A stretch of 54,393 nt of DNA, taken from positions 1 through 54,393 of the IMG/VR virus record IMGVR_UViG_3300032247_002425; one strand, written 5' to 3'. The DNA is from a virus (lineage: Duplodnaviria > Caudoviricetes). The position numbers and the translations under genes are program-made. Positions 4,707 to 23,496 of this stretch are shown in pieces. The notes beneath the pieces are model-generated. The model searched no databases. It saw only the letters and a program-made list of their open reading frames with translations, and had not been told where the DNA came from. The number at the start of each line of letters is the position of its first letter. Within the stretch, counting starts at the first letter, position 1.

Positions 4707-5963
4707 ATGGCAAAGGACACGATTAACCATTTGTTTTCATGCAGCTTTTGCAGCAAAAACCAGCGTGAAGTTACCAAGCTAATAAGCGGTAATGATGTAT
4801 ACATCTGCAATGAATGCGTGGATCTGTGCCACGGTATACTGCGCGAAGAAAAGATCCAGGCGCGACCAGACACGACTGATCTAACCCCCGCTAAGATAAA
4901 ATCATGGCTTGATGATCGCTTGGTAGGACAAGACCATGCTAAGATGGTATTAAGCGTGGCTGTTTACAACCATATCAAGCGCATCAACAATCCAGTGATA
5001 GACGGCGTAGAGATAGACAAGAGCAACGTGATGTTTGTTGGTCCTACCGGATGCGGCAAGACCTATATGATACAGCAGATAGCCAAGCTATTAGATATAC
5101 CGTTGGTGATCATCGATGCTACGAGCATCACCGAAAGTGGTTATGTTGGTTTGGACGTAGAAGAAACCATAGCCAGACTGTATCAGGCTGCTGACCAAGA
5201 TATCGCCAAGACCGAGCGCGGCATCGTGTATATAGACGAGATCGACAAGAAGAGCCGCAAGAGCGAAAGCAGCAGCATCACACGCGATGTAAGCGGCGAA
5301 GGTGTGCAACAGGGCTTGCTCAAGATACTGGAAGGCTGTGAGGTCAAGGTACCGCCCGCTGGAGGTCGCAAGAATCCACAGGGCGAATTTATAATGGTAA
5401 ACACCAAGAACATATTGTTCATACTTGGTGGTGCGTTTGTTGGATTGAAAGACATCGTAGCCAAACGCCTAGATGTTGGCGGCGGCATTGGATTTGGTGC
5501 TAAGCTAAACAAGCAAGAAAGAAACGATTCTGAAAGCTTTGAGTTGGTCAGCCAAGCCAGACAGGAAGACCTCATCACGTTCGGAATCATCCCAGAGATG
5601 ATTGGTCGCATTCCTGTGATAGTACCATTCAAAGACCTCGACGAGGATGATCTAGTTCGCATACTCACCGAACCCAAGAACGCGATAATCAAACAGTATC
5701 AAAAGATGTTTAGCGTTGATGGAGTTGATCTAGAAGTACAAACATCTGCACTGCGGCTGATAGCACAGCAGGCAAAAGCTCGCAATACAGGAGCACGTGG
5801 CTTGCGCGGTATCATAGAAAATCTACTGCTCAAGAGCCAATTTGATCTGCCCCAACTGAGCAAAGATGGTGTTAGCAAGATCATCATCACTGATGATATG
5901 GTCAACAATGGCAGTGAACCAATGCGGGTGCACAGAGCTGTACCCGAAGCTGCTAACGTCTGA
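4707..5963 (+). CDS. clpX: ATP-dependent Clp protease ATPase subunit ClpX
   Basis: C4 zinc finger CSFC...ICNECV, Walker [13 protein letters not shown] pore loop, Walker [21 protein letters not shown] loop, TGARGLR. Confidence 0.97.
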
Positions 5964-5990: not shown

Positions 5991-6260
5991 ATGGCACGAG
6001 ATTATAAAGACACGTCTGGCGACAGGGAAAGTTGGTCAAACAAGAAAGGCCTCACCGTGCAGGTCTGGAATGGCAACCTCAATAAAGCGTTGAGCCAACT
6101 CAAGAAACGTGTAGCCACAGAAGGCATTGCCAAAGAGCTGCGCAAGCGCAAGAACTTTGAAACCAACACTGCCAAGCGTCGCAGGGCTATGGCAGAAGCC
6201 AAGAGCCGTTGGCGCAAGAAACAATCTCAGTTTGATGGGACTGATAAACGCAGGCCGTGA
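5991..6260 (+). CDS. rpsU: Ribosomal protein bS21 (phage-encoded)
   Basis: V.V.NGNLNKAL..LKKRV..EGI.KELRKRKNFE..T.KRRR pattern; basic 89-aa protein. Confidence 0.85.
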   Translation: MARDYKDTSGDRESWSNKKGLTVQVWNGNLNKALSQLKKRVATEGIAKELRKRKNFETNTAKRRRAMAEAKSRWRKKQSQFDGTDKRRP

Positions 6261-8992: not shown

Positions 8993-9052
8993 TGCAGGTG
9001 CCTACGGGGCCTGCACTAGATAATGCTTCGCTTTAACAGGAGGTATCAAATG
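8993..9052 (+). promoter_or_regulatory. ROSE-like RNA thermometer in hsp20 leader
   Basis: UACG-loop hairpin 8993-9015, then AUGCUUC-G-CU/uuaac/AGGAGGUAU hairpin pairing the SD with a bulged G (U(U/C)GCU motif). Confidence 0.7.
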
Positions 9053-9529
9053 CGAAACCAATCTACATATCTATTGCCATCTATGGACGATTTCTTCAGA
9101 GATCTAAATCGATTCGCCATTGGATTTGAACCAATGATCACCAGGATCCACAGCCTGCATCCAAATCAAGCCGCAGGTTATCCGCCCTACAATCTTGAAA
9201 ACGATGGTTCTACCTATCGTTTAGAACTAGCGGTCGCTGGATTCAAGATGGAAGAGCTGGAGATCTATCTAACCAACGATCGTGTGCTCATGGTCAGAGG
9301 CAGCAAAAGCACTGACCAAAGTGAGAGAAATTGGATCCATCGTGGCATTGCCGGTCGTGATTTTGAGCGTCAATTCACTCTAGCAGAGCACATCAAAGTA
9401 GTCAGCGCCAAGCTGGAAGATGGCTTGCTGATCATTGAGCTGGAGCGCGAAGTGCCAGAGGCTACCAAAGGACGTGTGATCCCGATCAGCAACAGCACTG
9501 TCATTGACGTCACGTCTTCAGCAGAATGA
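9050..9529 (+). CDS. ibpA: Small heat shock protein Hsp20 (IbpA-like)
   Basis: GYPPYNL, LELAVAGF, HRGIA.RDFERQFTLAEH, A.LEDGLL.I.L; ATG 9050 after AGGAGG. Confidence 0.95.
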   Translation: MRNQSTYLLPSMDDFFRDLNRFAIGFEPMITRIHSLHPNQAAGYPPYNLENDGSTYRLELAVAGFKMEELEIYLTNDRVLMVRGSKSTDQSERNWIHRGIAGRDFERQFTLAEHIKVVSAKLEDGLLIIELEREVPEATKGRVIPISNSTVIDVTSSAE

Positions 9530-9582: not shown

Positions 9583-9894
9583 ATGGCCGAGACCAAGAAG
9601 CAAAATGTAGTCGCTGTGATAGAACGTGTTGCCATGGCCCCTCCTCGCATGTGGAATGTATGGTTGGTAAATGATGATCAGACAACCATGGAATTCGTGG
9701 TACTTGTGCTAATGCAGATCTTCCATCGCAGCTTTGAAGAAGCGCAGGATATCATGATGCACATCCATACTAACGGACGCGGAATAGCAGGCACTTACAG
9801 CCATGAAGTGGCCACTCAAAAGCGCGACGAGACTGTTGCTATTGCTAGATCGAGCGGATTTCCACTGGTTGCAGAGCTAAATCCAGCAGAATAA
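9583..9894 (+). CDS. clpS: Clp protease adaptor ClpS
   Basis: PP.MWNVWLVNDDQTTMEFVV.VL..IF, MMHIH..G.GIAG.Y..EVA..K, GFPL. Confidence 0.95.
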   Translation: MAETKKQNVVAVIERVAMAPPRMWNVWLVNDDQTTMEFVVLVLMQIFHRSFEEAQDIMMHIHTNGRGIAGTYSHEVATQKRDETVAIARSSGFPLVAELNPAE

Positions 9895-9898
9895 CCGG

Positions 9899-9926
9899 TT
9901 GACAGCATATAAATCGGTGCTATAGT
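9899..9926 (+). promoter_or_regulatory. Sigma70-type promoter
   Basis: TTGACA-N16-TATAGT with TGC immediately before the -10. Confidence 0.65.
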
Positions 9927-12772: not shown

Positions 12773-13080
12773 AAGTGGTCGAACCATACATATCCTCGGC
12801 CCTGGACTACTATCCCTGTTGTTGGATAGCCAACGAACCTCATCTAAGTGATCTACGAGAATGGCTGGCTGATGATTTTTCACAACTTAGCCTGCTGGAG
12901 CAAAGCTTAGATGCGGTGTTGCACAGTCGTGCTATGCAGCGCATTGAATCAAGTTGGATCGAAGGCACTCTTGAACCCTGTGTCAAATTTTGCAGCGCGC
13001 CGTTTGATCAGACTGGATCTAACCGGCGTGACAAGCACATTAGCCTGTCTCTAAATGTGCACAAGATAGATGAATGGTAA
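12742..13080 (+). CDS. Stand-alone SPASM/twitch-like Cys-rich domain
   Basis: PRC...YIS....YYPCCW...CVKFC pattern, normally the C-terminal domain of the preceding radical SAM type. Confidence 0.65.
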   Translation: MVSVTPRCKLKVVEPYISSALDYYPCCWIANEPHLSDLREWLADDFSQLSLLEQSLDAVLHSRAMQRIESSWIEGTLEPCVKFCSAPFDQTGSNRRDKHISLSLNVHKIDEW

Positions 13081-13096
13081 ACAAACGGAGAATAGA

Positions 13097-14305
13097 ATGA
13101 CCAACCCAATATTAAAAATGGAACTAGCCCACGGTGATGTGCTAATCGAGTGCTATCCAGATAAAGCTCCAAATCACGTGGCGCAGATAATCCGCCAGGC
13201 CAATTCTGGACTTTATGACGACACTGACTTCCACCGGGTAATAGAAGGCTTTATGGCACAAGGCGGCTGGACCAAGCAACCTCTGCCGCAGCTTCAAGCC
13301 GAATTCAATGATGTCTCTCACACAGAAGGCATCTGCAGCATGGCGCGAACCAATGATCCTAACAGTGCCAGCGATCAGTTCTTTATCTGCTTTGGTAATG
13401 CTCAGTTCCTGGATAGACAATATACTGTATGGGGCAAGGTGATCTACGGAATGCAGCATGTGCATGCGATCACTCGCGGCGAACCGCCGCAGAATCCTAC
13501 CAAGATAGTGAAGATGCGGCAGCTGAGCATGCAGGCTGTAGAATCTCTGCAACCCATGGCTGATGGATCAGTAGTGTACAAGAATACTATCAACGGTCCG
13601 TTGATCATGTTGAAAAACGATTGGTGGATCAAGCATGGAATGGAAAACATTGATCTGATCAATCAGGAACTGCATCAGTTCGATCAATTGATCAAGCTCG
13701 CCAGGCAGCTACGTCCAGAGCTTAACAGCGTGATTGACGGTGGATCAAACATGGGATCGTGGACCATGCCTCTGGCACGGGCTAACAGGGATGTTGAATT
13801 CCATACCTTTGAAGTGCAAAAATTAGTATACTACATCAGCTGCGGTAATTTTGCGCTAAACGGCGTGACCAATGTCTATGCTAACTGGGCCGGCTTGACC
13901 GACCAAGAAGGTCTGATAGGCCTACCAATACCAAACTATGATAGCTCACAGAATTTTGGATCATTTGAAGTTGCACCTCCGTTTGCCAACAGCGATTGCG
14001 TGTTAACATATACAGGCAAGATTGACATAGTTAGGACCGTGACCATAGACAGCCTAGAGCTATCTCCGGTGCTGATCAAGCTAGACATAGAAGGCATGGA
14101 ATATCGCGCATTGAACGGCGGTATCAATACTATTGATTCGCATATACCAATAGTTTGGTGCGAAAGCCAAAAGAGTGATCCGGTTGCAGTCACAGGTTTC
14201 TTTGCTACCCGAGGTTATGTGCTCAGCATGGCTATAGAAGGTCACTGGTTGTTCATCCCACCTTGGTTGCAGGGTAATACAAGCTTAGAATCAATATTGG
14301 GATAA
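13097..14305 (+). CDS. Cyclophilin-type PPIase fused in frame to an FkbM-family methyltransferase
   Basis: N-half FHRVIEGFMAQGG, SMAR...PNSA..QFFI, FLD.QYTVWGKV; C-half IDGGSNMG, FEVQ, NFG, IKLDIEGME; ATG 13097 after GGAG. Confidence 0.85.
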   Translation: MTNPILKMELAHGDVLIECYPDKAPNHVAQIIRQANSGLYDDTDFHRVIEGFMAQGGWTKQPLPQLQAEFNDVSHTEGICSMARTNDPNSASDQFFICFGNAQFLDRQYTVWGKVIYGMQHVHAITRGEPPQNPTKIVKMRQLSMQAVESLQPMADGSVVYKNTINGPLIMLKNDWWIKHGMENIDLINQELHQFDQLIKLARQLRPELNSVIDGGSNMGSWTMPLARANRDVEFHTFEVQKLVYYISCGNFALNGVTNVYANWAGLTDQEGLIGLPIPNYDSSQNFGSFEVAPPFANSDCVLTYTGKIDIVRTVTIDSLELSPVLIKLDIEGMEYRALNGGINTIDSHIPIVWCESQKSDPVAVTGFFATRGYVLSMAIEGHWLFIPPWLQGNTSLESILG

Positions 14306-14774: not shown

Positions 14775-14832
14775 TCATGGTCGGGCTACGGCCGGCCATG
14801 ACACAATCTTGCTTTATGAGGAGATAGAAATG
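14775..14832 (+). promoter_or_regulatory. ROSE-like RNA thermometer in dnaK leader
   Basis: UACG-loop hairpin 14775-14801, then AUCUU-G-CU/uuaug/AGGAGAU hairpin sequestering the SD with a bulged G. Confidence 0.65.
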
Positions 14833-16686
14833 AGCAAAGTGATCGGTATTGACCTTGGAACCACCAACAGCTGCGTGGCTGTGATCGAAGGTGGCAAGGC
14901 CAAAGTTCTAGAAAACGCAGAAGGTGCTCGCACCACACCCAGCATCGTGGGATTCAAGGATGGCGAGACGCTAGTCGGTGCACCTGCAAAGAGACAGGCT
15001 GTGACTAACCCTAAAAATACGCTGCATGCAGTTAAGAGATTGATCGGTCGTCGCTATGAAGACGACAGCGTGCAGAAAGACAAGAAGCTGCTGAGCTACG
15101 CAATCGTAGCAGCCGCCAACGGCGATGCCTGGGTAGAAGTCGACGGCAAGAAGATGAGCCCTAGCGAAGTAAGCGCCAAGATATTGACCAAGATGAAAGA
15201 GACAGCCGAGCGCTATCTTGGTACCACAGTTGATCAAGCAGTGATCACTGTACCAGCCTACTTCAACGATAGCCAGCGACAGGCTACCAAGGACGCAGGC
15301 AAGATCGCAGGCATGGAAGTGCTGCGCATCATCAACGAGCCAACAGCTGCTGCTTTAGCCTATGGACTGGACAAGAAGCAAGCGGGCAAGATCGCGGTTT
15401 ACGATCTCGGCGGTGGTACCTTTGACGTTTCAATACTTGAACTGGGCGATGGCGTGTTTGAAGTGCTCAGCACCAACGGTGACACACAGCTGGGCGGCGA
15501 AGACTTTGACCTGCGCATCGTGGACTTCCTAGCAGACACTTTCAAGACAGAACAGGGCATCGATCTCCGCAAGGACAACATGGCACTGCAGCGCCTCAAG
15601 GAAGCTGCAGAGAAGGCCAAGATAGAGCTGTCAAGCAGCGCAAGCACGGACATTAACCTGCCATACATCACAGCTGACAAGGATGGCCCCAAGCATCTCA
15701 CCGTCACACTGTCACGCAGCAAGCTGGAAAGCTTGGTTGATGACCTGGTCACCCGCACGCAGGGACCATGCCGCAAGGCACTGGCAGATGCAGGTTTACA
15801 GGCTGGCGATATCAGCGAAGTGATATTGGTTGGCGGCCAGACACGCATGCCCAAGGTGCAGCAGGCTGTGAAAGATATCTTCAAGCGTGATCCCAGCCAG
15901 GGCGTTAACCCAGACGAAGTGGTTGCCATGGGTGCTGCCATCCAGGGCGGGGTGCTACAGGGCGATGTCAAGGACGTGCTGCTGCTAGATGTGACTCCAC
16001 TGAGCCTGGGCATTGAAACGCTGGGTGGCGTGTTCACCAAGCTGATTGAACGCAACACCACCATACCTACCAAGAAGAGCCAAGTGTTCAGCACTGCTGC
16101 TGACAACCAGCCAGCTGTGAGCATTGCAGTGTTCCAAGGCGAACGACAGATCGCTCGGGACAACAAGAGTTTGGCCAACTTTGAACTTACTGGTATAGCA
16201 CCAGCACCTCGGGGCATGCCGCAGATCGAAGTGACCTTTGACATCGATGCCAACGGTATCGTGCATGTCAGTGCCAAGGATCAAGCCACTGGCAAGGAAC
16301 AGAAGATTGCTATCCAAAGCAGCGGTGGGCTCAGTGATGATGACATAGAACGCATGGTACGCGAAGCTGAGGAAAACGCCGAAGCTGACAAGCGTAAGCG
16401 TGAAGTCATCGAAACACGCAACGGTGCTGAGACTCAGATCCACATGGCTGAAAAGCAGCTTAAAGAACATGAAGACAAGATCCCAGCTGAACTCAAGGCT
16501 GAGGTTGAAGCAGCTATCACTGAAGCACGTACTGCCATCGCAGGTGATGATCTCGATGCTATGAAGCCAGTGTTAGAACGTTTTGGCCAAACGCTGATGA
16601 AGATCGGCGAGATCGTCTACAAGGCACAGAGCACACCTCCTAGCCCAGACGAGCCAATTGATGTAGAAGCTAAGCCAGCTGAGTGA
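14830..16686 (+). CDS. dnaK: Molecular chaperone DnaK (Hsp70)
   Basis: [55 protein letters not shown]; ATG 14830 after GAGGAG. Confidence 0.98.
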
Positions 16687-17136: not shown

Positions 17137-17897
17137 TGCACAGCGAAACAATCACTGAAGTAACTCATTGGACAGATAGGCTGATGAGCATACGTACCAC
17201 TCGAGGACCTGCACTGCGATTCCAATCCGGACAGTTTACCATGATCGGATTGCCAGTAGATGGCAGACCTCTGTTGCGTGCCTACAGCATCGTTAGCCCA
17301 CACTATGAAGACCATTTGGAGTTCTACAGCATCAAGGTTACAGATGGTCCGCTGACCAGCAGGTTACAGCATGTTACAGTAGGAGATCAGCTGATAGTTG
17401 GTCCAAAGCCTGTGGGCACCTTGATGTTAGATAACCTGCTGCCTGGACGCAACCTTTGGTTCTTGGCCACGGGCACAGGTATTGCCCCATTCCTCAGCCT
17501 CATGCGAGATCCCATTGCCTATGAGCGTTACGATCGTGTGGTCCTCATACATGGTTGCAGGCAAGCTGCTGAACTGGCGTATGGTGCCAAGATGGTCAAT
17601 GATCTGCGCGGCAATGAGTTGATTGCAGAATTCAATGACAAGCTGGTGTACAGAGCAATCACCACCAGAGAACCGTCCCCCGTCATGGGTCGTATAACCG
17701 ACATGATCACAGATGGTAGATTATGGGCAGCGACAGGACTGCCAGAGATAGATGCTGCTCAGGACCGCGTGATGATCTGCGGTAGTACTGCTATGACCGT
17801 TGATCTCACTGAGATCATGCTAGCGCGTGGATTTACCGAAGGCAGCGCCTTCGTTCCTGGCGGATTTGTCTACGAGAAATCCTTCGTAGATCGTTGA
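17136..17897 (+). CDS. fpr: Ferredoxin/flavodoxin-NADP+ reductase
   Basis: RAYSI.S, GPLTSRLQ, ATGTGIAPF, MICGS, EKSFV C-terminus. Confidence 0.93.
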   Translation: MHSETITEVTHWTDRLMSIRTTRGPALRFQSGQFTMIGLPVDGRPLLRAYSIVSPHYEDHLEFYSIKVTDGPLTSRLQHVTVGDQLIVGPKPVGTLMLDNLLPGRNLWFLATGTGIAPFLSLMRDPIAYERYDRVVLIHGCRQAAELAYGAKMVNDLRGNELIAEFNDKLVYRAITTREPSPVMGRITDMITDGRLWAATGLPEIDAAQDRVMICGSTAMTVDLTEIMLARGFTEGSAFVPGGFVYEKSFVDR

Positions 17898-17903
17898 TAT
17901 TGG

Positions 17904-17931
17904 TTGACAGATTGCAGAACTATGCTAAATT
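17904..17931 (+). promoter_or_regulatory. Sigma70-type promoter
   Basis: TTGACA-N16-TAAATT with TGC before the -10. Confidence 0.55.
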
Positions 17932-17959
17932 AACATGTGATCCAACGAGGAGATCTAGG

Positions 17960-18298
17960 ATGCGCAAGATTATCGCAACTGCTTTGGCTTTGACCTTGAT
18001 GACGGGCTCTGCTATGGCAGATGGATGGGGATATGGACGTGGGCCTTGCAATTTCAACGGCTGCTACGGTGGGCACGGCGGGTATCACCAACACTATCAC
18101 GGTGGCGGCGGTGGTAACTGGGCTGCACCACTGGTTGGTGGGTTGATCATCGGCGGCATGCTTGGTGCCATGAGCCAACCTCGCTACTATCAAGAACAAC
18201 CAGCTTATCATACCGAGTGCCGCTGGGAACAGATGTATGATAACTGGGGCAACTACATTGGCAACGGGCGTCGTTGCTATAACGTTCCAAACTATTGA
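17960..18298 (+). CDS. Exported Gly/Tyr-rich protein with signal peptide
   Basis: MRKIIATALALTLMTGSAMA signal, Gly-rich linker, GGLIIGGMLGA hydrophobic stretch; ATG 17960 after GAGGAG. Confidence 0.75.
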   Translation: MRKIIATALALTLMTGSAMADGWGYGRGPCNFNGCYGGHGGYHQHYHGGGGGNWAAPLVGGLIIGGMLGAMSQPRYYQEQPAYHTECRWEQMYDNWGNYIGNGRRCYNVPNY

Positions 18299-18299
18299 G

Positions 18300-18327
18300 T
18301 TGACAGATCATGCGAGCGTGCTATAGT
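18300..18327 (+). promoter_or_regulatory. Sigma70-type promoter for the arfA-like gene
   Basis: TTGACA-N16-TATAGT with TGC before the -10. Confidence 0.7.
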
Positions 18328-18354
18328 ACCTCTGTTATCATAGAGGAGGTACCT

Positions 18355-18483
18355 GTGCGCAATGCTTACGCAAAAGCTCTCGCCCATCCAGTATTCAGAC
18401 AGCGCAAGGTCGCTGCCCGCAAGGGCAAAGGCGCCTACAAGCGCACAGCCAAGCATGTCCAAAAGCCAACCCTGGACGTTTGA
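18355..18483 (+). CDS. arfA: ArfA-like alternative ribosome rescue factor, 42 aa (not in ORF track)
   Basis: GAGGAGGT RBS, GTG start; MRNAYAKALAHPVFRQRKVAARKGKGAYKRTAKHVQKPTLDV matches the ArfA core N...L..P.FRQR....KGKG(S/A)Y.R..KH. Confidence 0.8.
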   Translation: MRNAYAKALAHPVFRQRKVAARKGKGAYKRTAKHVQKPTLDV

Positions 18484-18733
18484 CAATACCTGGTGGCATG
18501 CTGAGAGCCAATCTTTGCGACGCAAGATCAACAGCTTGCCCTATGATACCAAACGCGAAATGACCAAGCTGTTTGAAGCCTGTGAGGATCAGGCCATGGC
18601 CATATGGCGCGAAGAGATAACCTGCAGATATCGCAATTCTCAAACTGAGAAACACGCTGCTCTGATGTCTAAGTTCTTGCAATCACACAGCAATCTAGAA
18701 CAGCATGTGGTTATGGCCCTGCTGATGATCTAG
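18455..18733 (+). CDS. Hypothetical protein (start reassigned to ATG 18455)
   Basis: C-terminal part of track ORF 18362-18733; upstream part is occupied by the ArfA-like frame. Confidence 0.6.
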   Translation: MSKSQPWTFDNTWWHAESQSLRRKINSLPYDTKREMTKLFEACEDQAMAIWREEITCRYRNSQTEKHAALMSKFLQSHSNLEQHVVMALLMI

Positions 18734-18745
18734 GCAAATCAGTGG

Positions 18746-18773
18746 TTGACAGACCCTAGATCTATGCTATTGT
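18746..18773 (+). promoter_or_regulatory. Sigma70-type promoter
   Basis: TTGACA-N16-TATTGT with TGC before the -10. Confidence 0.65.
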
Positions 18774-18807
18774 AACTTATCAACGGCAATATTCACGGAG
18801 AAACAGC

Positions 18808-19200
18808 ATGATCTGTGTAAACGAAGATACCAACACTACATGCAAGACTGCCAATCCTTTAGGCGCATGGCTTAACGCGAAAGAGCGCGGCGAAGTAGCC
18901 ATGAACTTACACAGAGAATTCTTTGAGAGCGACGAACACCTGGACCGATTGGAAGCCGTGGCACAGATCATCAAAGATTTCTTTGGGCATAGTCCAAACT
19001 ATTACACCCCTCGCGGTATCGGTCGCAAACCTTTTGAAAGCGTAAAGGTATCAGATTGTGGTTGGTTCCTCAGCCGCAAGAGCGTGCAGGAAAAAAGCGA
19101 ACGCTTGTATGAGCCGTTAGATGCGCTAGGTGACGTTGATTTCAAGAGCAAGAACGGTCACCTTATCGTGCGTGTGTTTCCCAAGAGCAAGCAGCCGTGA
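18808..19200 (+). CDS. Hypothetical protein
   Basis: GGAG RBS, ATG, downstream of promoter, GTGA overlap with next gene. Confidence 0.7.
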   Translation: MICVNEDTNTTCKTANPLGAWLNAKERGEVAMNLHREFFESDEHLDRLEAVAQIIKDFFGHSPNYYTPRGIGRKPFESVKVSDCGWFLSRKSVQEKSERLYEPLDALGDVDFKSKNGHLIVRVFPKSKQP

Positions 19201-19439
19201 GTGTTGGGGTCAATGTGTTCCTGCACTTGATCTGGGTGCTACTCTGCGGTGGTATTGGATACATTTTGCGCTGGAGCATGGAGGAGTTCAAGGCCATGGA
19301 TCAACAGGTAGAGCGTTTAAACCAGCCAGAACAGCCCATTTCTAAAACACAATCGTCTGTGCCAAGCGCAGCTAGTAGTCTACAAGCCAAGGCAGATCCA
19401 GCTAAACTAGCAGAACTTAAAGCCAGCCTCAAAAAGTAA
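19197..19439 (+). CDS. Small single-pass membrane protein
   Basis: N-terminal hydrophobic helix; GTGA overlap. Confidence 0.6.
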   Translation: MSVGVNVFLHLIWVLLCGGIGYILRWSMEEFKAMDQQVERLNQPEQPISKTQSSVPSAASSLQAKADPAKLAELKASLKK

Positions 19440-21340: not shown

Positions 21341-21368
21341 TTGACACTAGCGTATTGTGTGCTATTGT
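21341..21368 (+). promoter_or_regulatory. Sigma70-type promoter
   Basis: TTGACA-N16-TATTGT with TGC before the -10. Confidence 0.65.
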
Positions 21369-21393: not shown

Positions 21394-23496
21394 ATGAAGA
21401 TCGCAGACACGGCAACTACCACAGATACCAACAGCGCATTCACCATCGCTGCCACCGGCAAAGCGTTCAAGATCCTCAGCGATGGCCTATATTCAGACAA
21501 GATACGTGCTATCATCCGCGAGCTGGCCTGCAACGCTCGGGACAGCCACGTAGCGGCTGGCAATGGTGCGCCATGGAGCATGCACCTTCCAACCTATGAT
21601 GAACAATGGTTCAGCATTGAAGATTTTGGCACAGGCATGAGCCACGAGGACGTGATCAACGTCTACAGCCGCTACTTCGCCAGCACCAAGACTGCCAGCA
21701 ACGATTTCGTGGGACAGCTGGGCTTGGGCAGCAAGAGTCCATTTAGCTATACCAGAGAGTTTTGGGTAAACAGCCGCTATGCTGGCGTTGAGAATCGTTA
21801 CCGCATGTATTTCGACGACAGTGACACTCCTCGAGTGGATCACATTGCCAGCGGTCCTGCCATGGGCTCAGGCATCATGGTCCAGTTTGCTGTGATCAGC
21901 GGTATCGAGCGCTGGCACCACAAGGCTGTGGAAGTGCTGCGTTGGTTTGATCAGAAACCGACCTGCAACGTCCAAATCGAGATGGACATTGCTGAACCCG
22001 CGCGTCGTGGACAGGGTTGGCGCATCTGGGACAAGGCTCAGTGGAATGGATGGTTTATCCAGATCCTCATGGGAGGTGTGCTCTATCCTTTGGATCGCCA
22101 CAGCATCCCTGACATGGATCACCGCATTGGTTACCTCTGTGATTTTCCAATCGTGATTGACATGCCAATCGGCGACTGCGACGTGGCTGCCAGCCGTGAA
22201 GGTCTCAGCTATGATCCGCGCACTGTGAGCAACATCATTGCGCGGTTGAACGCGGTACGTGACAACATGGTTGCGATGATCAGCGATGCCATCAGCAACG
22301 CACCCACGCTCTGGGACGCACATCACCAATGGCATGTGAACTTTGCAGGCTCAGTCGGCTACTACATGCGCCGCGTGTTTGATGACGTGCAGCTGGAATG
22401 GCAAGGGCACAACATCGATCGTGGTACCATGTCAGTGGACACAAACAAGCTGTACAAGAAACCTGACAATGGCGTGCGGCTCATGCCTGCGCAGATCAAG
22501 AGCGTGCGTAAGAATGATACTTTCATGTTGAGCTGTACTCCTGCTACCAAGATCGTGTTTGACGATCTCAAGAAAGGTGGATTGGGGCGTGCACGGCAGA
22601 TGCACGCTGTGGCTGACTACAAGAACGTCACGGTGCTGTTCCCAACTCGACAGGGCGGTTGGGAAGCATTGCGTGCCGAGCTGGGTTACCCAGACGTAGT
22701 CTACGCCAGCACGCTGCCTGACGTGGTCAAGAAGACACGTAACACCGTGCAGCAGGTCTGGGAGTTACATCATCAGTCAAGGACCGGTGGCAAGTATGCT
22801 TGGCGCAGCATTGATCCCGCCACGCTGGCCACCACAGGCAAGATGATCTACGTCACGCTTAAGAACTGGGATGTTATCACTGGTCACAAGATGCTGGGTC
22901 GCTATGGCCTGGATACTCTGCGATCGGCTGCTGTACAGGCCGGATTGATCATGCAAGATACACCAATCTATGCGGTACGTCCTGCCAGCGTGCCCAAGCT
23001 TGATGCCAAGCGCTGGGTGAGCTTGCATGATCATCTGCAACCATTGGTAACGGCCATGCTGGCTGAGCCCAAGACACAAGCACTGTACAGGGTACATGCA
23101 GAACAATCGCAGGTGCAGGACGTGCTACCCACCACCATCAACAAGCTCAGCAACTGGGTTGATCAGTTGCGCAAGAAACTGCGCGATCCGGAAAGTGAAC
23201 TGATCCATTTTCTCACTGCGCTCAGCGACATGAAGACTGCCAGCAATGTGGATCTCAGTCCATATCGCACGCTGCAGAGGCACTATGAGATCCAGATGCC
23301 CGAGTTTGATGAGCGCAGCGCAGTTGGTATTGAAGCAGCACGCATCGCTCGCAAGTATGGCATGCTCAACCATGTTAACCTTGGTTATCACATTGACCCA
23401 AAGTCCATGGATGATTTGGTCAACTACATCGATGCAGTTGATACAGCTCATGTGTTCCTGTCATTGAGCAAGACAGAACCAGAATCTGAGGCATGA
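21394..23496 (+). CDS. rIIA: rIIA-like protein with N-terminal GHKL (Hsp90-type) ATPase domain
   Basis: AFKILS..LYSDK.RA.IREL.CNA.DSH, DFGTGM, YF.STK..SND..G.LGLGSKSPF.Y, SRE.LSY. Confidence 0.85.
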   Translation: MKIADTATTTDTNSAFTIAATGKAFKILSDGLYSDKIRAIIRELACNARDSHVAAGNGAPWSMHLPTYDEQWFSIEDFGTGMSHEDVINVYSRYFASTKTASNDFVGQLGLGSKSPFSYTREFWVNSRYAGVENRYRMYFDDSDTPRVDHIASGPAMGSGIMVQFAVISGIERWHHKAVEVLRWFDQKPTCNVQIEMDIAEPARRGQGWRIWDKAQWNGWFIQILMGGVLYPLDRHSIPDMDHRIGYLCDFPIVIDMPIGDCDVAASREGLSYDPRTVSNIIARLNAVRDNMVAMISDAISNAPTLWDAHHQWHVNFAGSVGYYMRRVFDDVQLEWQGHNIDRGTMSVDTNKLYKKPDNGVRLMPAQIKSVRKNDTFMLSCTPATKIVFDDLKKGGLGRARQMHAVADYKNVTVLFPTRQGGWEALRAELGYPDVVYASTLPDVVKKTRNTVQQVWELHHQSRTGGKYAWRSIDPATLATTGKMIYVTLKNWDVITGHKMLGRYGLDTLRSAAVQAGLIMQDTPIYAVRPASVPKLDAKRWVSLHDHLQPLVTAMLAEPKTQALYRVHAEQSQVQDVLPTTINKLSNWVDQLRKKLRDPESELIHFLTALSDMKTASNVDLSPYRTLQRHYEIQMPEFDERSAVGIEAARIARKYGMLNHVNLGYHIDPKSMDDLVNYIDAVDTAHVFLSLSKTEPESEA

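What the first reader, a model, noticed from the sequence alone, without database searches (positions are those of the whole stretch)
18300..18483. Hidden ArfA-like ribosome rescue factor with its own promoter
Seen: a 42-aa ORF below the track cutoff and masked by an overlapping frame, with a near-perfect SD and consensus promoter, carrying P.FRQR and KGKGAY.R..KH. Known: ArfA recruits RF2 to non-stop ribosomes. E. coli arfA is limited by mRNA truncation, tmRNA tagging and a hydrophobic C-tail. This ORF has a normal stop right after the core and no such tail. Inference: constitutive, tmRNA-independent rescue, possibly countering mRNA/tRNA-cleaving defences or host mRNA decay.
Basis: partly seen in the sequence, partly recalled or inferred. 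Interest (0 to 1): 0.85.

Follow-up and report, generated by a model that had tools for sequence, protein, structure and literature searches.

The report
Phage mini-ArfA without its usual brake
A T4-like phage fragment carries a real 42-residue relative of the bacterial ribosome-rescue factor ArfA that has its own promoter and a normal stop codon, and so lacks the built-in switch that keeps bacterial ArfA off.

Summary
It scores above Pfam's ArfA cut-off (35.9 vs 25.5 bits) and aligns to solved E. coli ArfA. Five related phage loci vary mainly at third codon positions inside the ORF (9/6/24). The 45 nt upstream show no such pattern but keep the -35, TG-extended -10 and SD. So the 57-aa form called by gene callers is probably promoter plus leader. 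The promoter is one of six TTGACA-N13-TGCTAnnnT sites in the window (0.2 expected).

Bacterial arfA genes carry 20-54 codons after the core over a strongly folding stretch (113 of 114 with z < -2). This clade has 14-15 codons, a polar end and no significant fold. In IMG/VR, 49 of 59 ArfA-like loci share this stripped form.

The protein also lacks the part matching E. coli residues 1-11, which belongs to the RF2-activating minidomain. The window is phage: rIIA, tail fibres, and also S21, ClpX, ClpS, DnaK and Hsp20.

Best reading (0.65): an early, trans-translation-independent, RF2-recruiting rescue factor. Activity and any counter-defence role are untested. Phage ArfAs are already annotated in two papers, so this is a new variant of a known kind.

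The parts
18300..18305 (+). -35 hexamer TTGACA of the arfA promoter
   Evidence: 11 of 12 consensus matches, spacer 16. Invariant in 5 of 5 related loci. One of 6 TTGACA-N13-TGCTAnnnT sites in the window against 0.2 expected.
18319..18327 (+). Extended -10, TGCTATAGT; the transcript is expected to start near 18334 (inferred)
   Evidence: TG and TAnnnT are kept in 5 of 5 loci (TATAGT in 4, TACAAT in 1), while the flanking bases vary.
18343..18349 (+). Shine-Dalgarno GAGGAGG, 5 nt before the start codon
   Evidence: GAGGAGG in 4 of 5 loci and GAGGAAG in 1. In the mis-called 57-aa proteins it appears as the conserved 'EE'.
18355..18483 (+). arfA-like CDS, 42 codons plus TGA; start GTG
   Evidence: PF03889 at 35.9 bits against a cut-off of 25.5. 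E. coli ArfA chains in the PDB at E 2e-4. Variable columns by codon position 9/6/24 in the part not overlapped by the next gene. ATG replaces GTG at this position in L005; P0009 has M at this position.
18455..18733 (+). Downstream CDS of 92 aa that overlaps the last 29 nt of arfA in another frame; function unknown, three-helix bundle
   Evidence: The ATG is kept in 5 of 5 loci, and variable columns run 13/14/23 by codon position. AlphaFold2 pLDDT 91 with three helices. No Pfam, PHROG or fold match.

Best explanation
This is a real phage gene for a minimal ArfA. The protein is a 42-residue, strongly basic peptide. I infer that its C-terminal half (KGKGAY.R..KH) occupies the empty mRNA channel of a ribosome stalled at the 3' end of a truncated mRNA. 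I also infer that its N-terminal half (YAKAL..P.FRQRKV) sits in the decoding centre and recruits host RF2 to release the peptide. Unlike bacterial arfA, it is transcribed from its own sigma70-type phage promoter, translated from a strong SD, and ended by an ordinary stop codon. Its synthesis should therefore not be cancelled by tmRNA tagging, and the factor should be present from early infection whether or not trans-translation is saturated. Shown here: the gene is real, it belongs to the family, and it has the promoter/SD/stop architecture without tail or hairpin. Inferred: ribosome and RF2 binding, peptide release, and timing.
For: Family: PF03889 E 5.2e-9, 35.9 bits against 25.5, also found in the six-frame search of the record. 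E. coli ArfA chains 5u4i, 5mdv, 5mgp, 5h5u and 7oj0 match at E 2e-4 to 4e-4, aligning residues 3-37 to E. coli 14-48. The peptide therefore spans E. coli 12-53. The natural active E. coli form lacks its last 17-18 of 72 residues, and only 46-48 residues are ordered on the ribosome (PMC8012679 passages).

Selection: variable columns run 9/6/24 by codon position. The invariant columns among 14 clade members include Y, A, K, A, L, P, F, R, Q, R, K of the N-terminal half. That fits a specific partner contact rather than channel binding alone.

Regulation: the -35, extended -10 and SD are kept while the spacers vary, and the site belongs to a promoter family of 6 against 0.2 expected. The 3' region has no stable fold (z +0.49 against dinucleotide shuffles) and none of 19 predicted pairs covaries. 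In my mononucleotide-shuffle test four of the five clade loci score z -0.2 to -1.2. Bacterial loci have a median z of -5.5, with 113 of 114 below -2 and tails of 20-54 codons. In an evenly drawn phylum sample, 23 of 25 located loci are below -2.

Generality: 49 of 59 ArfA-like loci in IMG/VR have tails under 20 codons and z above -2. These loci form 24 clusters at 70% identity, and 15 clusters are of this kind in all members.

Context: the same phage carries ribosomal protein S21, so it carries a second ribosome-binding gene.
Against: No expression data: no RNA run is listed for this DNA.

The peptide has only two residues before the position matching E. coli N14. It therefore lacks most of the aa 2-16 minidomain, including I11, whose ordering accompanies RF2 opening (PMC5378476 passages). 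E. coli A18 and L19 align to K and A.

One of the five clade loci (L005) does show a moderately stable 3' fold (z -2.9).

The host and its RF2 are unknown, and ArfA/RF2 pairs are reported to be species-specific (PMC8012679 passage). No release-factor gene was found in the five related fragments, which are 2-10% complete.

The bacterial comparison sets are not matched to the unknown host lineage.
Confidence: 0.65

Rival explanations
1. Decoy or inhibitor. The peptide binds the vacant mRNA channel, and perhaps RF2 in its closed form, but cannot open RF2 because the N-terminal minidomain is missing. It would then block tmRNA-SmpB or host ArfA instead of releasing peptides, for example to spare phage proteins from ssrA tagging.
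For: Only two residues precede the equivalent of E. coli N14. In E. coli, ordering of aa 2-16 is coupled to RF2 opening, and A18T binds RF2 without release (PMC5378476 passages; PMC8012679). The phage also encodes its own ClpX and ClpS.
Against: The residues aligned to the RF2- and decoding-centre-contacting positions P23, L24, F25 and the RQR strand are the most conserved part of the clade. Bacterial members from an evenly drawn sample (L217-L220) also lack the enterobacterial-type N-terminus, so it is not a family-wide requirement. Trapping ribosomes would cost the phage its own translation capacity (inference).
Confidence: 0.13
2. The real product is the 57-aa protein from ATG 18310, as gene callers annotate it, and the promoter and SD are chance features inside coding sequence.
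For: The frame from ATG 18310 is open in 5 of 5 loci. 11 of 13 database homologues are called that way.
Against: The 15 extra codons show no codon periodicity (8/7/9 variable of 15 each). Their only conserved residues are the translations of TGCTAT and GAGGAG. They add nothing to the Pfam match (profile 15-43 against 16-43). There is no SD before 18310. The ATG lies upstream of the predicted transcript start. ATG replaces GTG at 18355 in L005, and P0009 has M there.
Confidence: 0.05
3. An ArfA-derived peptide that works with a different partner, such as RF1 or a phage-encoded factor elsewhere in the unsampled ~90% of the genome, or one that has a role unrelated to non-stop rescue.
For: The window is estimated at 10% of the genome. 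ArfT is reported to use both RF1 and RF2 (PMC8012679 passage). E. coli L19, part of the patch that contacts RF2 W319, aligns to alanine here.
Against: No release-factor domain was found in the five fragments searched. The core motifs are those of RF2-dependent ArfA.
Confidence: 0.07

Closest known systems
E. coli ArfA (YhdL), solved on the ribosome with RF2 (PDB 5U4I, 5MDV, 5MGP, 5H5U, 7OJ0)
   Same: Same Pfam family. The motifs P-x-F-R-Q-R, K-G-K-G-x-Y-x-R and K-H align. Both are small basic peptides. The phage protein matches E. coli residues 12-53, almost the length of the natural active truncated form.
   Different: No equivalent of residues 1-11. No 17-18-residue hydrophobic tail. No strongly folding stretch after the core. 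An ordinary stop codon and an own phage promoter.
ArfA genes already annotated in phages: Citromicrobium phage vB_CbaS-RXM gp10 (OL963731; PMC8953757) and pelagiphage HTVC027P gp30 (PMC12753301)
   Same: Phage-borne PF03889 proteins. RXM gp10 scores 29.6 bits and lies in a region of small genes beside ardA. gp30 is reported as highly expressed early and late in infection (passage).
   Different: RXM gp10 is 60 aa and has 29 residues after the tyrosine. It is only 49% identical to the window protein by tblastn. I did not see the HTVC027P sequence. Neither paper discusses stop codon, tail or regulation in the passages I read.
Unannotated 41-aa ORF in Roseobacter phage CRP-212 (MZ892988.1)
   Same: A minimal ArfA with a short N-terminus, KH, a stop 7 residues later and a polar end. 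PF03889 33.3 bits.
   Different: It lies out of frame inside the 3' end of the large gene gp38 rather than between genes, and no own promoter was examined.
B. subtilis BrfA
   Same: An RF2-dependent rescue peptide with a KH motif in the mRNA channel (PMC8012679 passage). It works in the way proposed here.
   Different: Reported as unrelated in sequence apart from KH, and also made from a non-stop mRNA. Membership was not tested here.

Membership tests
ArfA (Pfam PF03889) | Profile score above the curated gathering cut-off | tested here: met
   35.9 bits against 25.5, E 5.2e-9, residues 7-34 on profile positions 16-43 of 44. 34.7 bits in the six-frame search of the record.
ArfA (Pfam PF03889) | Core motifs of solved ArfA: P-L/V-F-R-Q-R in the A site, the K-G-K-G-S/A-Y-x-R basic loop, and the K-H pocket motif | tested here: met
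   HMMER alignment to PDB chains of E. coli ArfA, residues 3-37 to 14-48. The roles of the motifs come from PMC8012679 and PMC5378476 passages.
ArfA (Pfam PF03889) | Short, strongly basic peptide | tested here: met
   42 aa with 12 K/R and 1 D/E, counted from the translation.
ArfA (E. coli type) | N-terminal minidomain (aa 2-16) that orders when RF2 opens | tested here: not met
   Only M-R precede the residue aligned to E. coli N14, and profile positions 1-15 are unmatched. This feature is defined from E. coli. Bacterial loci L217-L220 also have a different, basic N-terminus.
ArfA (bacterial regulation) | Made from a non-stop mRNA: a stem-loop inside the ORF (RNase III site or terminator) plus a dispensable, mostly hydrophobic tail | tested here: not met
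   The tail is 14 codons after the Y and polar. Fold z is +0.49 and -0.65, with no covarying pair. Bacterial loci have tails of 20-54 codons, and 113 of 114 score z below -2.
ArfA | RF2-dependent peptidyl-tRNA hydrolysis on non-stop ribosomes; synthetic lethality with ssrA | not testable with these tools
   Needs biochemistry or genetics.
ArfA | Taxonomic range reported as Gammaproteobacteria and some Betaproteobacteria | tested here: not met
   The window is a virus record with rIIA and tail fibres. No relative of this clade was found in 185,579 species genomes with clade-specific patterns. The reported range comes from PMC11633108 and PMC8012679 passages.

The most novel reading that the evidence does not exclude
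Stripped-down ArfAs may be a widespread and mostly unannotated phage takeover or counter-defence module. They have no regulatory hairpin, no degron-like tail and a shortened N-terminus, and they occur in at least 15 sequence clusters in viral contigs. Freed from tmRNA control, they would keep ribosomes recycling, without tagging the products, when phage or defence nucleases truncate mRNAs. The shortened N-terminus would imply a way of opening RF2 that differs from the E. coli minidomain mechanism.
Probability: 0.3. Interest if true: 0.75.

Novelty: new variant of a known kind. Interest (0 to 1): 0.5.

Why it matters
Bacterial ArfA is a textbook back-up system: it is only made when trans-translation fails. 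A phage copy that keeps the working core but drops that control would show how a virus rewires ribosome rescue for its own use. It would also give a natural minimal ArfA for testing which parts are needed to open RF2. The stripped form dominates the ArfA-like genes I found in viral contigs, so many phages may carry such sub-50-codon genes that annotation pipelines miss or mis-start. With S21, ClpX, ClpS, DnaK and Hsp20 in the same fragment, this phage is a candidate system for studying viral control of translation and protein quality control.

Tried and rejected
Binding to the overlapping downstream 92-aa protein: complex prediction gave no verdict (score 0.02, mark 0.32). This is no evidence either way.

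Function of the 92-aa protein: no Pfam or PHROG family. Atlas hits reached 0.76 or less, which is a lead only. A confident three-helix model found no PDB match at E <= 0.001.

Expression: the look-up of sequencing runs listed no RNA holder.

Host or bacterial origin of the clade: clade-specific patterns found no relative in genome contigs.

Rescue partners in the phage: ARAGORN found no tRNA or tmRNA, Rfam found nothing at gathering score, and no RF-1 domain was found in the window or four related records, all 2-10% complete.

A whole-leader structure: the 227-nt fold had z -2.56. I did not pursue it.

TTGACAGATCATG as a longer repeated motif: 5 matches at up to 2 mismatches against 2.2 expected, which is not significant.

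The ArfA-like ORF in L009, inside a primase/helicase-like gene, had no Pfam support and was dropped.

A second tblastn against phages with a short homologue (P0020) found only CRP-212 again. I never saw the HTVC027P sequence.

Papers. Passages only were read from PMC12753301, PMC8953757, PMC8012679, PMC5378476 and PMC11633108. All other papers were seen only as search listings. Supplements are closed, and the pelagiphage expression tables could bear on timing. My searches found no paper that describes the stop-terminated, hairpin-less form of phage ArfA. The library lacks most subscription journals.

Full report
WHAT IS THERE. The + strand reads as follows. TTGACA lies at 18300-18305, then a 16-nt spacer, then TATAGT at 18322-18327 preceded by TG at 18319-18320. 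GAGGAGG lies at 18343-18349, and GTG at 18355 follows 5 nt later. The frame then runs 42 codons to TGA 18481-18483. The consensus scan scores the promoter at 11 of 12 with a TG extension. The product is MRNAYAKALAHPVFRQRKVAARKGKGAYKRTAKHVQKPTLDV, with 12 K/R and 1 acidic residue. My first translation started one base late and matched nothing. In the right frame the peptide matches Pfam ArfA (PF03889) at E 5.2e-9 and 35.9 bits, against a curated cut-off of 25.5. The six-frame search of the record finds the same place. Sequence search of the PDB returns only E. coli ArfA chains (5u4i, 5mdv, 5mdw, 5mgp, 5h5u, 7oj0) at E 2e-4 to 4e-4. Residues 3-37 align to E. coli 14-48, so phage position i corresponds to E. 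coli i+11.

IS IT A GENE, AND WHERE DOES IT START. A word-indexed search found 13 homologues at 74-98% identity, all with a precomputed PF03889 hit. Eleven are called as 57 aa from an ATG equivalent to 18310, one as 42 aa and one as 69 aa. IMG/VR gave four syntenic loci, L002-L005. In the DNA alignment of these four with the window, the -35 hexamer is invariant. TG-n-TAnnnT is kept (TATAGT in four, TACAAT in one), and the SD is kept (GAGGAGG in four, GAGGAAG in one). The bases between these elements vary freely.

Counting variable columns by codon position gives these results:
- The 15 'extra' codons of the 57-aa form show 8/7/9 of 15 each, so there is no periodicity.
- The arfA part that the next gene does not overlap shows 9/6/24 of 34/33/33, the signature of a protein under purifying selection.
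- The 123-aa frame that overlaps arfA from 18362 takes its changes at its own second position (6/24/8), so it is not coding there.

In L005 the start is ATG instead of GTG, and P0009 has M at that position. I conclude that the 42-aa ORF is the gene. The 57-aa form is promoter plus leader read as protein: its conserved 'CY' and 'EE' are TGCTAT and GAGGAG.

THE PROMOTER IS ONE OF A FAMILY. The pattern TTGACA-N13-TGCTAnnnT occurs 6 times in the window, all on the + strand, against 0.2 expected; 0 of 100 shuffles reach 6. The sites are at 9899, 17904, 18300, 18746, 21341 and 53540. Each lies a few tens of bases before a start codon, and the one at 21341 precedes the rIIA homologue.

WHAT KIND OF GENOME. 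The record is an IMG/VR virus record labelled provirus, with CheckV completeness 10%. The four related records are 2-10% complete. The window encodes:
- an RIIA homologue (phrog_612, E 3.5e-105);
- two tail-fibre proteins;
- a run of proteins of 962 to 1893 aa, most without family matches;
- radical SAM proteins;
- a set of translation and proteostasis genes: ClpX, ribosomal protein S21 and ClpS, Hsp20, a cyclophilin fused to an FkbM methyltransferase, and DnaK.

Synteny from cyclophilin through DnaK, a cytidylyltransferase and a small glycine-rich secreted protein to arfA and the 92-aa gene holds in the related loci. I read the window as a fragment of a large T4-like phage. I saw no integrase or host flank, but I did not examine every ORF.

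HOW IT DIFFERS FROM BACTERIAL arfA. According to the review PMC8012679 (passages), E. coli arfA encodes 72 aa. A stem-loop in the ORF causes termination or RNase III cleavage, so the message is non-stop and the product is tagged by tmRNA unless trans-translation is overwhelmed. The active product lacks the last 17-18 residues. Only 46-48 residues are ordered on the ribosome, and truncation to 40 residues kills activity. The phage peptide equals E. coli 12-53: it keeps KH plus 8 residues and ends in a polar LDV.

I compared this with bacterial genes. A degenerate pattern for FRQR-x5-KGKG-x-Y found 120 stretches in genome contigs. By title the records are mostly Enterobacterales and Pasteurellaceae. 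I dropped 5 loci cut by the locus end and one chance match (L100). The remaining 114 have 20-54 codons after the tyrosine. The 110 nt after the core fold far better than mononucleotide shuffles: median z is -5.5, and 113 of 114 fall below -2. The window scores -0.65 and L002-L004 score -0.24 to -1.22. L005 scores -2.9, a partial exception. With the tool's dinucleotide shuffles, 18430-18530 gives z +0.49, and none of 19 predicted pairs covaries.

A second, evenly drawn sample of 401 genomes of one phylum had 37 PF03889 matches. Of the 30 best loci I could place the core in 25. Their tails are 15-48 codons, and 23 of 25 score z below -2.

In E. coli, residues 2-16 are disordered while RF2 is closed and fold into a minidomain when RF2 opens. 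A18 packs against I11, and L19, L24 and F25 contact RF2 W319 (PMC5378476 passages). The phage peptide has only M-R before the residue aligned to N14. A18 and L19 align to K and A, while P23, L24 and F25 align to P, V (L in most of the clade) and F. The E. coli way of opening RF2 therefore cannot be copied exactly. Against reading this as loss of function, the N-terminal half is the most conserved part of the clade. Bacterial loci L217-L220 also have a short basic N-terminus of another kind.

IS THE STRIPPED FORM A VIRAL HABIT. Four motif variants scanned over IMG/VR gave 59 loci, four of which belong to this clade. All 59 match an HMM I built from alignment A6, though that check is not independent of the motif. 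The loci divide as follows:
- 54 have tails under 20 codons, and 49 of those have z above -2.
- 3 have the bacterial arrangement (tail of 20 or more codons and z of -2 or below).
- L140 has an 18-codon hydrophobic tail with z -3.4.

The loci are redundant. At 70% identity they form 24 clusters. Fifteen clusters are short and unstructured in every member, 2 are bacterial-like and 7 are mixed; the window clade counts as mixed because of L005/L139. One locus, L145 on a 176-kb contig, keeps an enterobacterial-type N-terminus but has only 10 codons after the core. The profile search of 1.84 billion representatives found 147 ArfA-like proteins at E <= 1e-3, of 33 to 112 aa and many under 50 aa. That library gives no origin and cannot show whether short entries are complete. 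Caveats: I relied on IMG/VR's classification as viral, and the bacterial and viral samples are not matched by lineage.

MECHANISM. Best reading (0.65): an early phage product that binds non-stop ribosomes and recruits host RF2, made independently of trans-translation because its message has a stop codon. The steps shown are gene reality, family membership and regulatory architecture. Binding, release and timing are inferred. The rivals are a decoy that binds but does not release (0.13), the 57-aa form (0.05), and another partner or role (0.07). The counter-defence idea, rescue after mRNA- or tRNA-cleaving systems act, is compatible with a T4-like setting but rests on no result here.

KNOWN OR NEW. 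Phage ArfA genes are already in print as annotations. These are Citromicrobium phage RXM gp10 (PMC8953757 passage; record annotation) and pelagiphage HTVC027P gp30, reported as highly expressed early and late (PMC12753301 passage). Surveys place bacterial ArfA in Gamma- and some Betaproteobacteria. My searches found no description of the stop-terminated, hairpin-less, N-terminally short form or of its prevalence in viruses. I rate it a new variant of a known kind, with interest 0.5.

LIMITS. There is no expression evidence and the host is unknown.

Noticed in passing
window 5991-6260 (+): An 89-aa ORF directly after ClpX matches ribosomal protein S21 (PF01165, E 9.6e-12, 44.9 bits against 27). 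It is a second ribosome-binding gene in the same phage fragment.
   Followed up: no
window 4707-5963, 9023-9529, 9583-9894, 13070-14305, 14809-16686: A proteostasis set on one strand: ClpX, Hsp20, ClpS, a cyclophilin fused to an FkbM-type methyltransferase, and DnaK. No ClpP was seen among the ORFs I scanned.
   Followed up: partly
window 9899, 17904, 18300, 18746, 21341, 53540 (+): Six copies of (G)GTTGACA-N13-TGCTAnnnT, each shortly before a start codon, against 0.2 expected. This is a phage promoter family with an extended -10. One copy precedes the rIIA homologue at 21394-23496.
   Followed up: partly
L010 2492-2617 (Roseobacter phage CRP-212, MZ892988.1, complement strand): An unannotated 41-aa ORF passes the Pfam ArfA cut-off (33.3 bits). 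It lies out of frame inside the acidic 3' end of the large gene gp38. IMG/VR loci L146, L148 and L151 encode near-identical peptides.
   Followed up: partly
L145 (IMG/VR contig of 176,021 bases), match at 12848-12892 (-): A viral ArfA that keeps an enterobacterial-type N-terminus but stops 10 codons after the core, with no stable 3' fold (z -0.4). It looks like an independent loss of the regulatory tail.
   Followed up: no
L209, L214, L216, L218, L220 (bacterial genomes of the phylum sample): Five of the 25 bacterial ArfA ORFs located end in ...MAA...QAA or ...LAA after only 15-18 codons past the core. This resembles an ssrA-type C-terminal degron (recalled, not tested). All five have stable 3' folds (z -2.3 to -7.2).
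   Followed up: no
window 18455-18483: The next gene's ATG lies inside the K-H-V codons of arfA, and the two frames overlap by 29 nt with no SD of its own in view. The invariant D-V end of ArfA coincides with the conserved W-x-F-D of the other frame.
   Followed up: partly
window 17960-18298 (+): The upstream neighbour is a small glycine-rich protein with a signal-peptide-like start (MRKIIATALAL...). It has a weak, sub-threshold DUF1190 match (21.3 bits against 22) and is conserved in all four related loci.
   Followed up: no
window 17800-19300: Five public DNA runs hold half or more of the sampled words of this stretch. One may be the source sample, and two from separate studies are labelled freshwater metagenome.
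   Followed up: no
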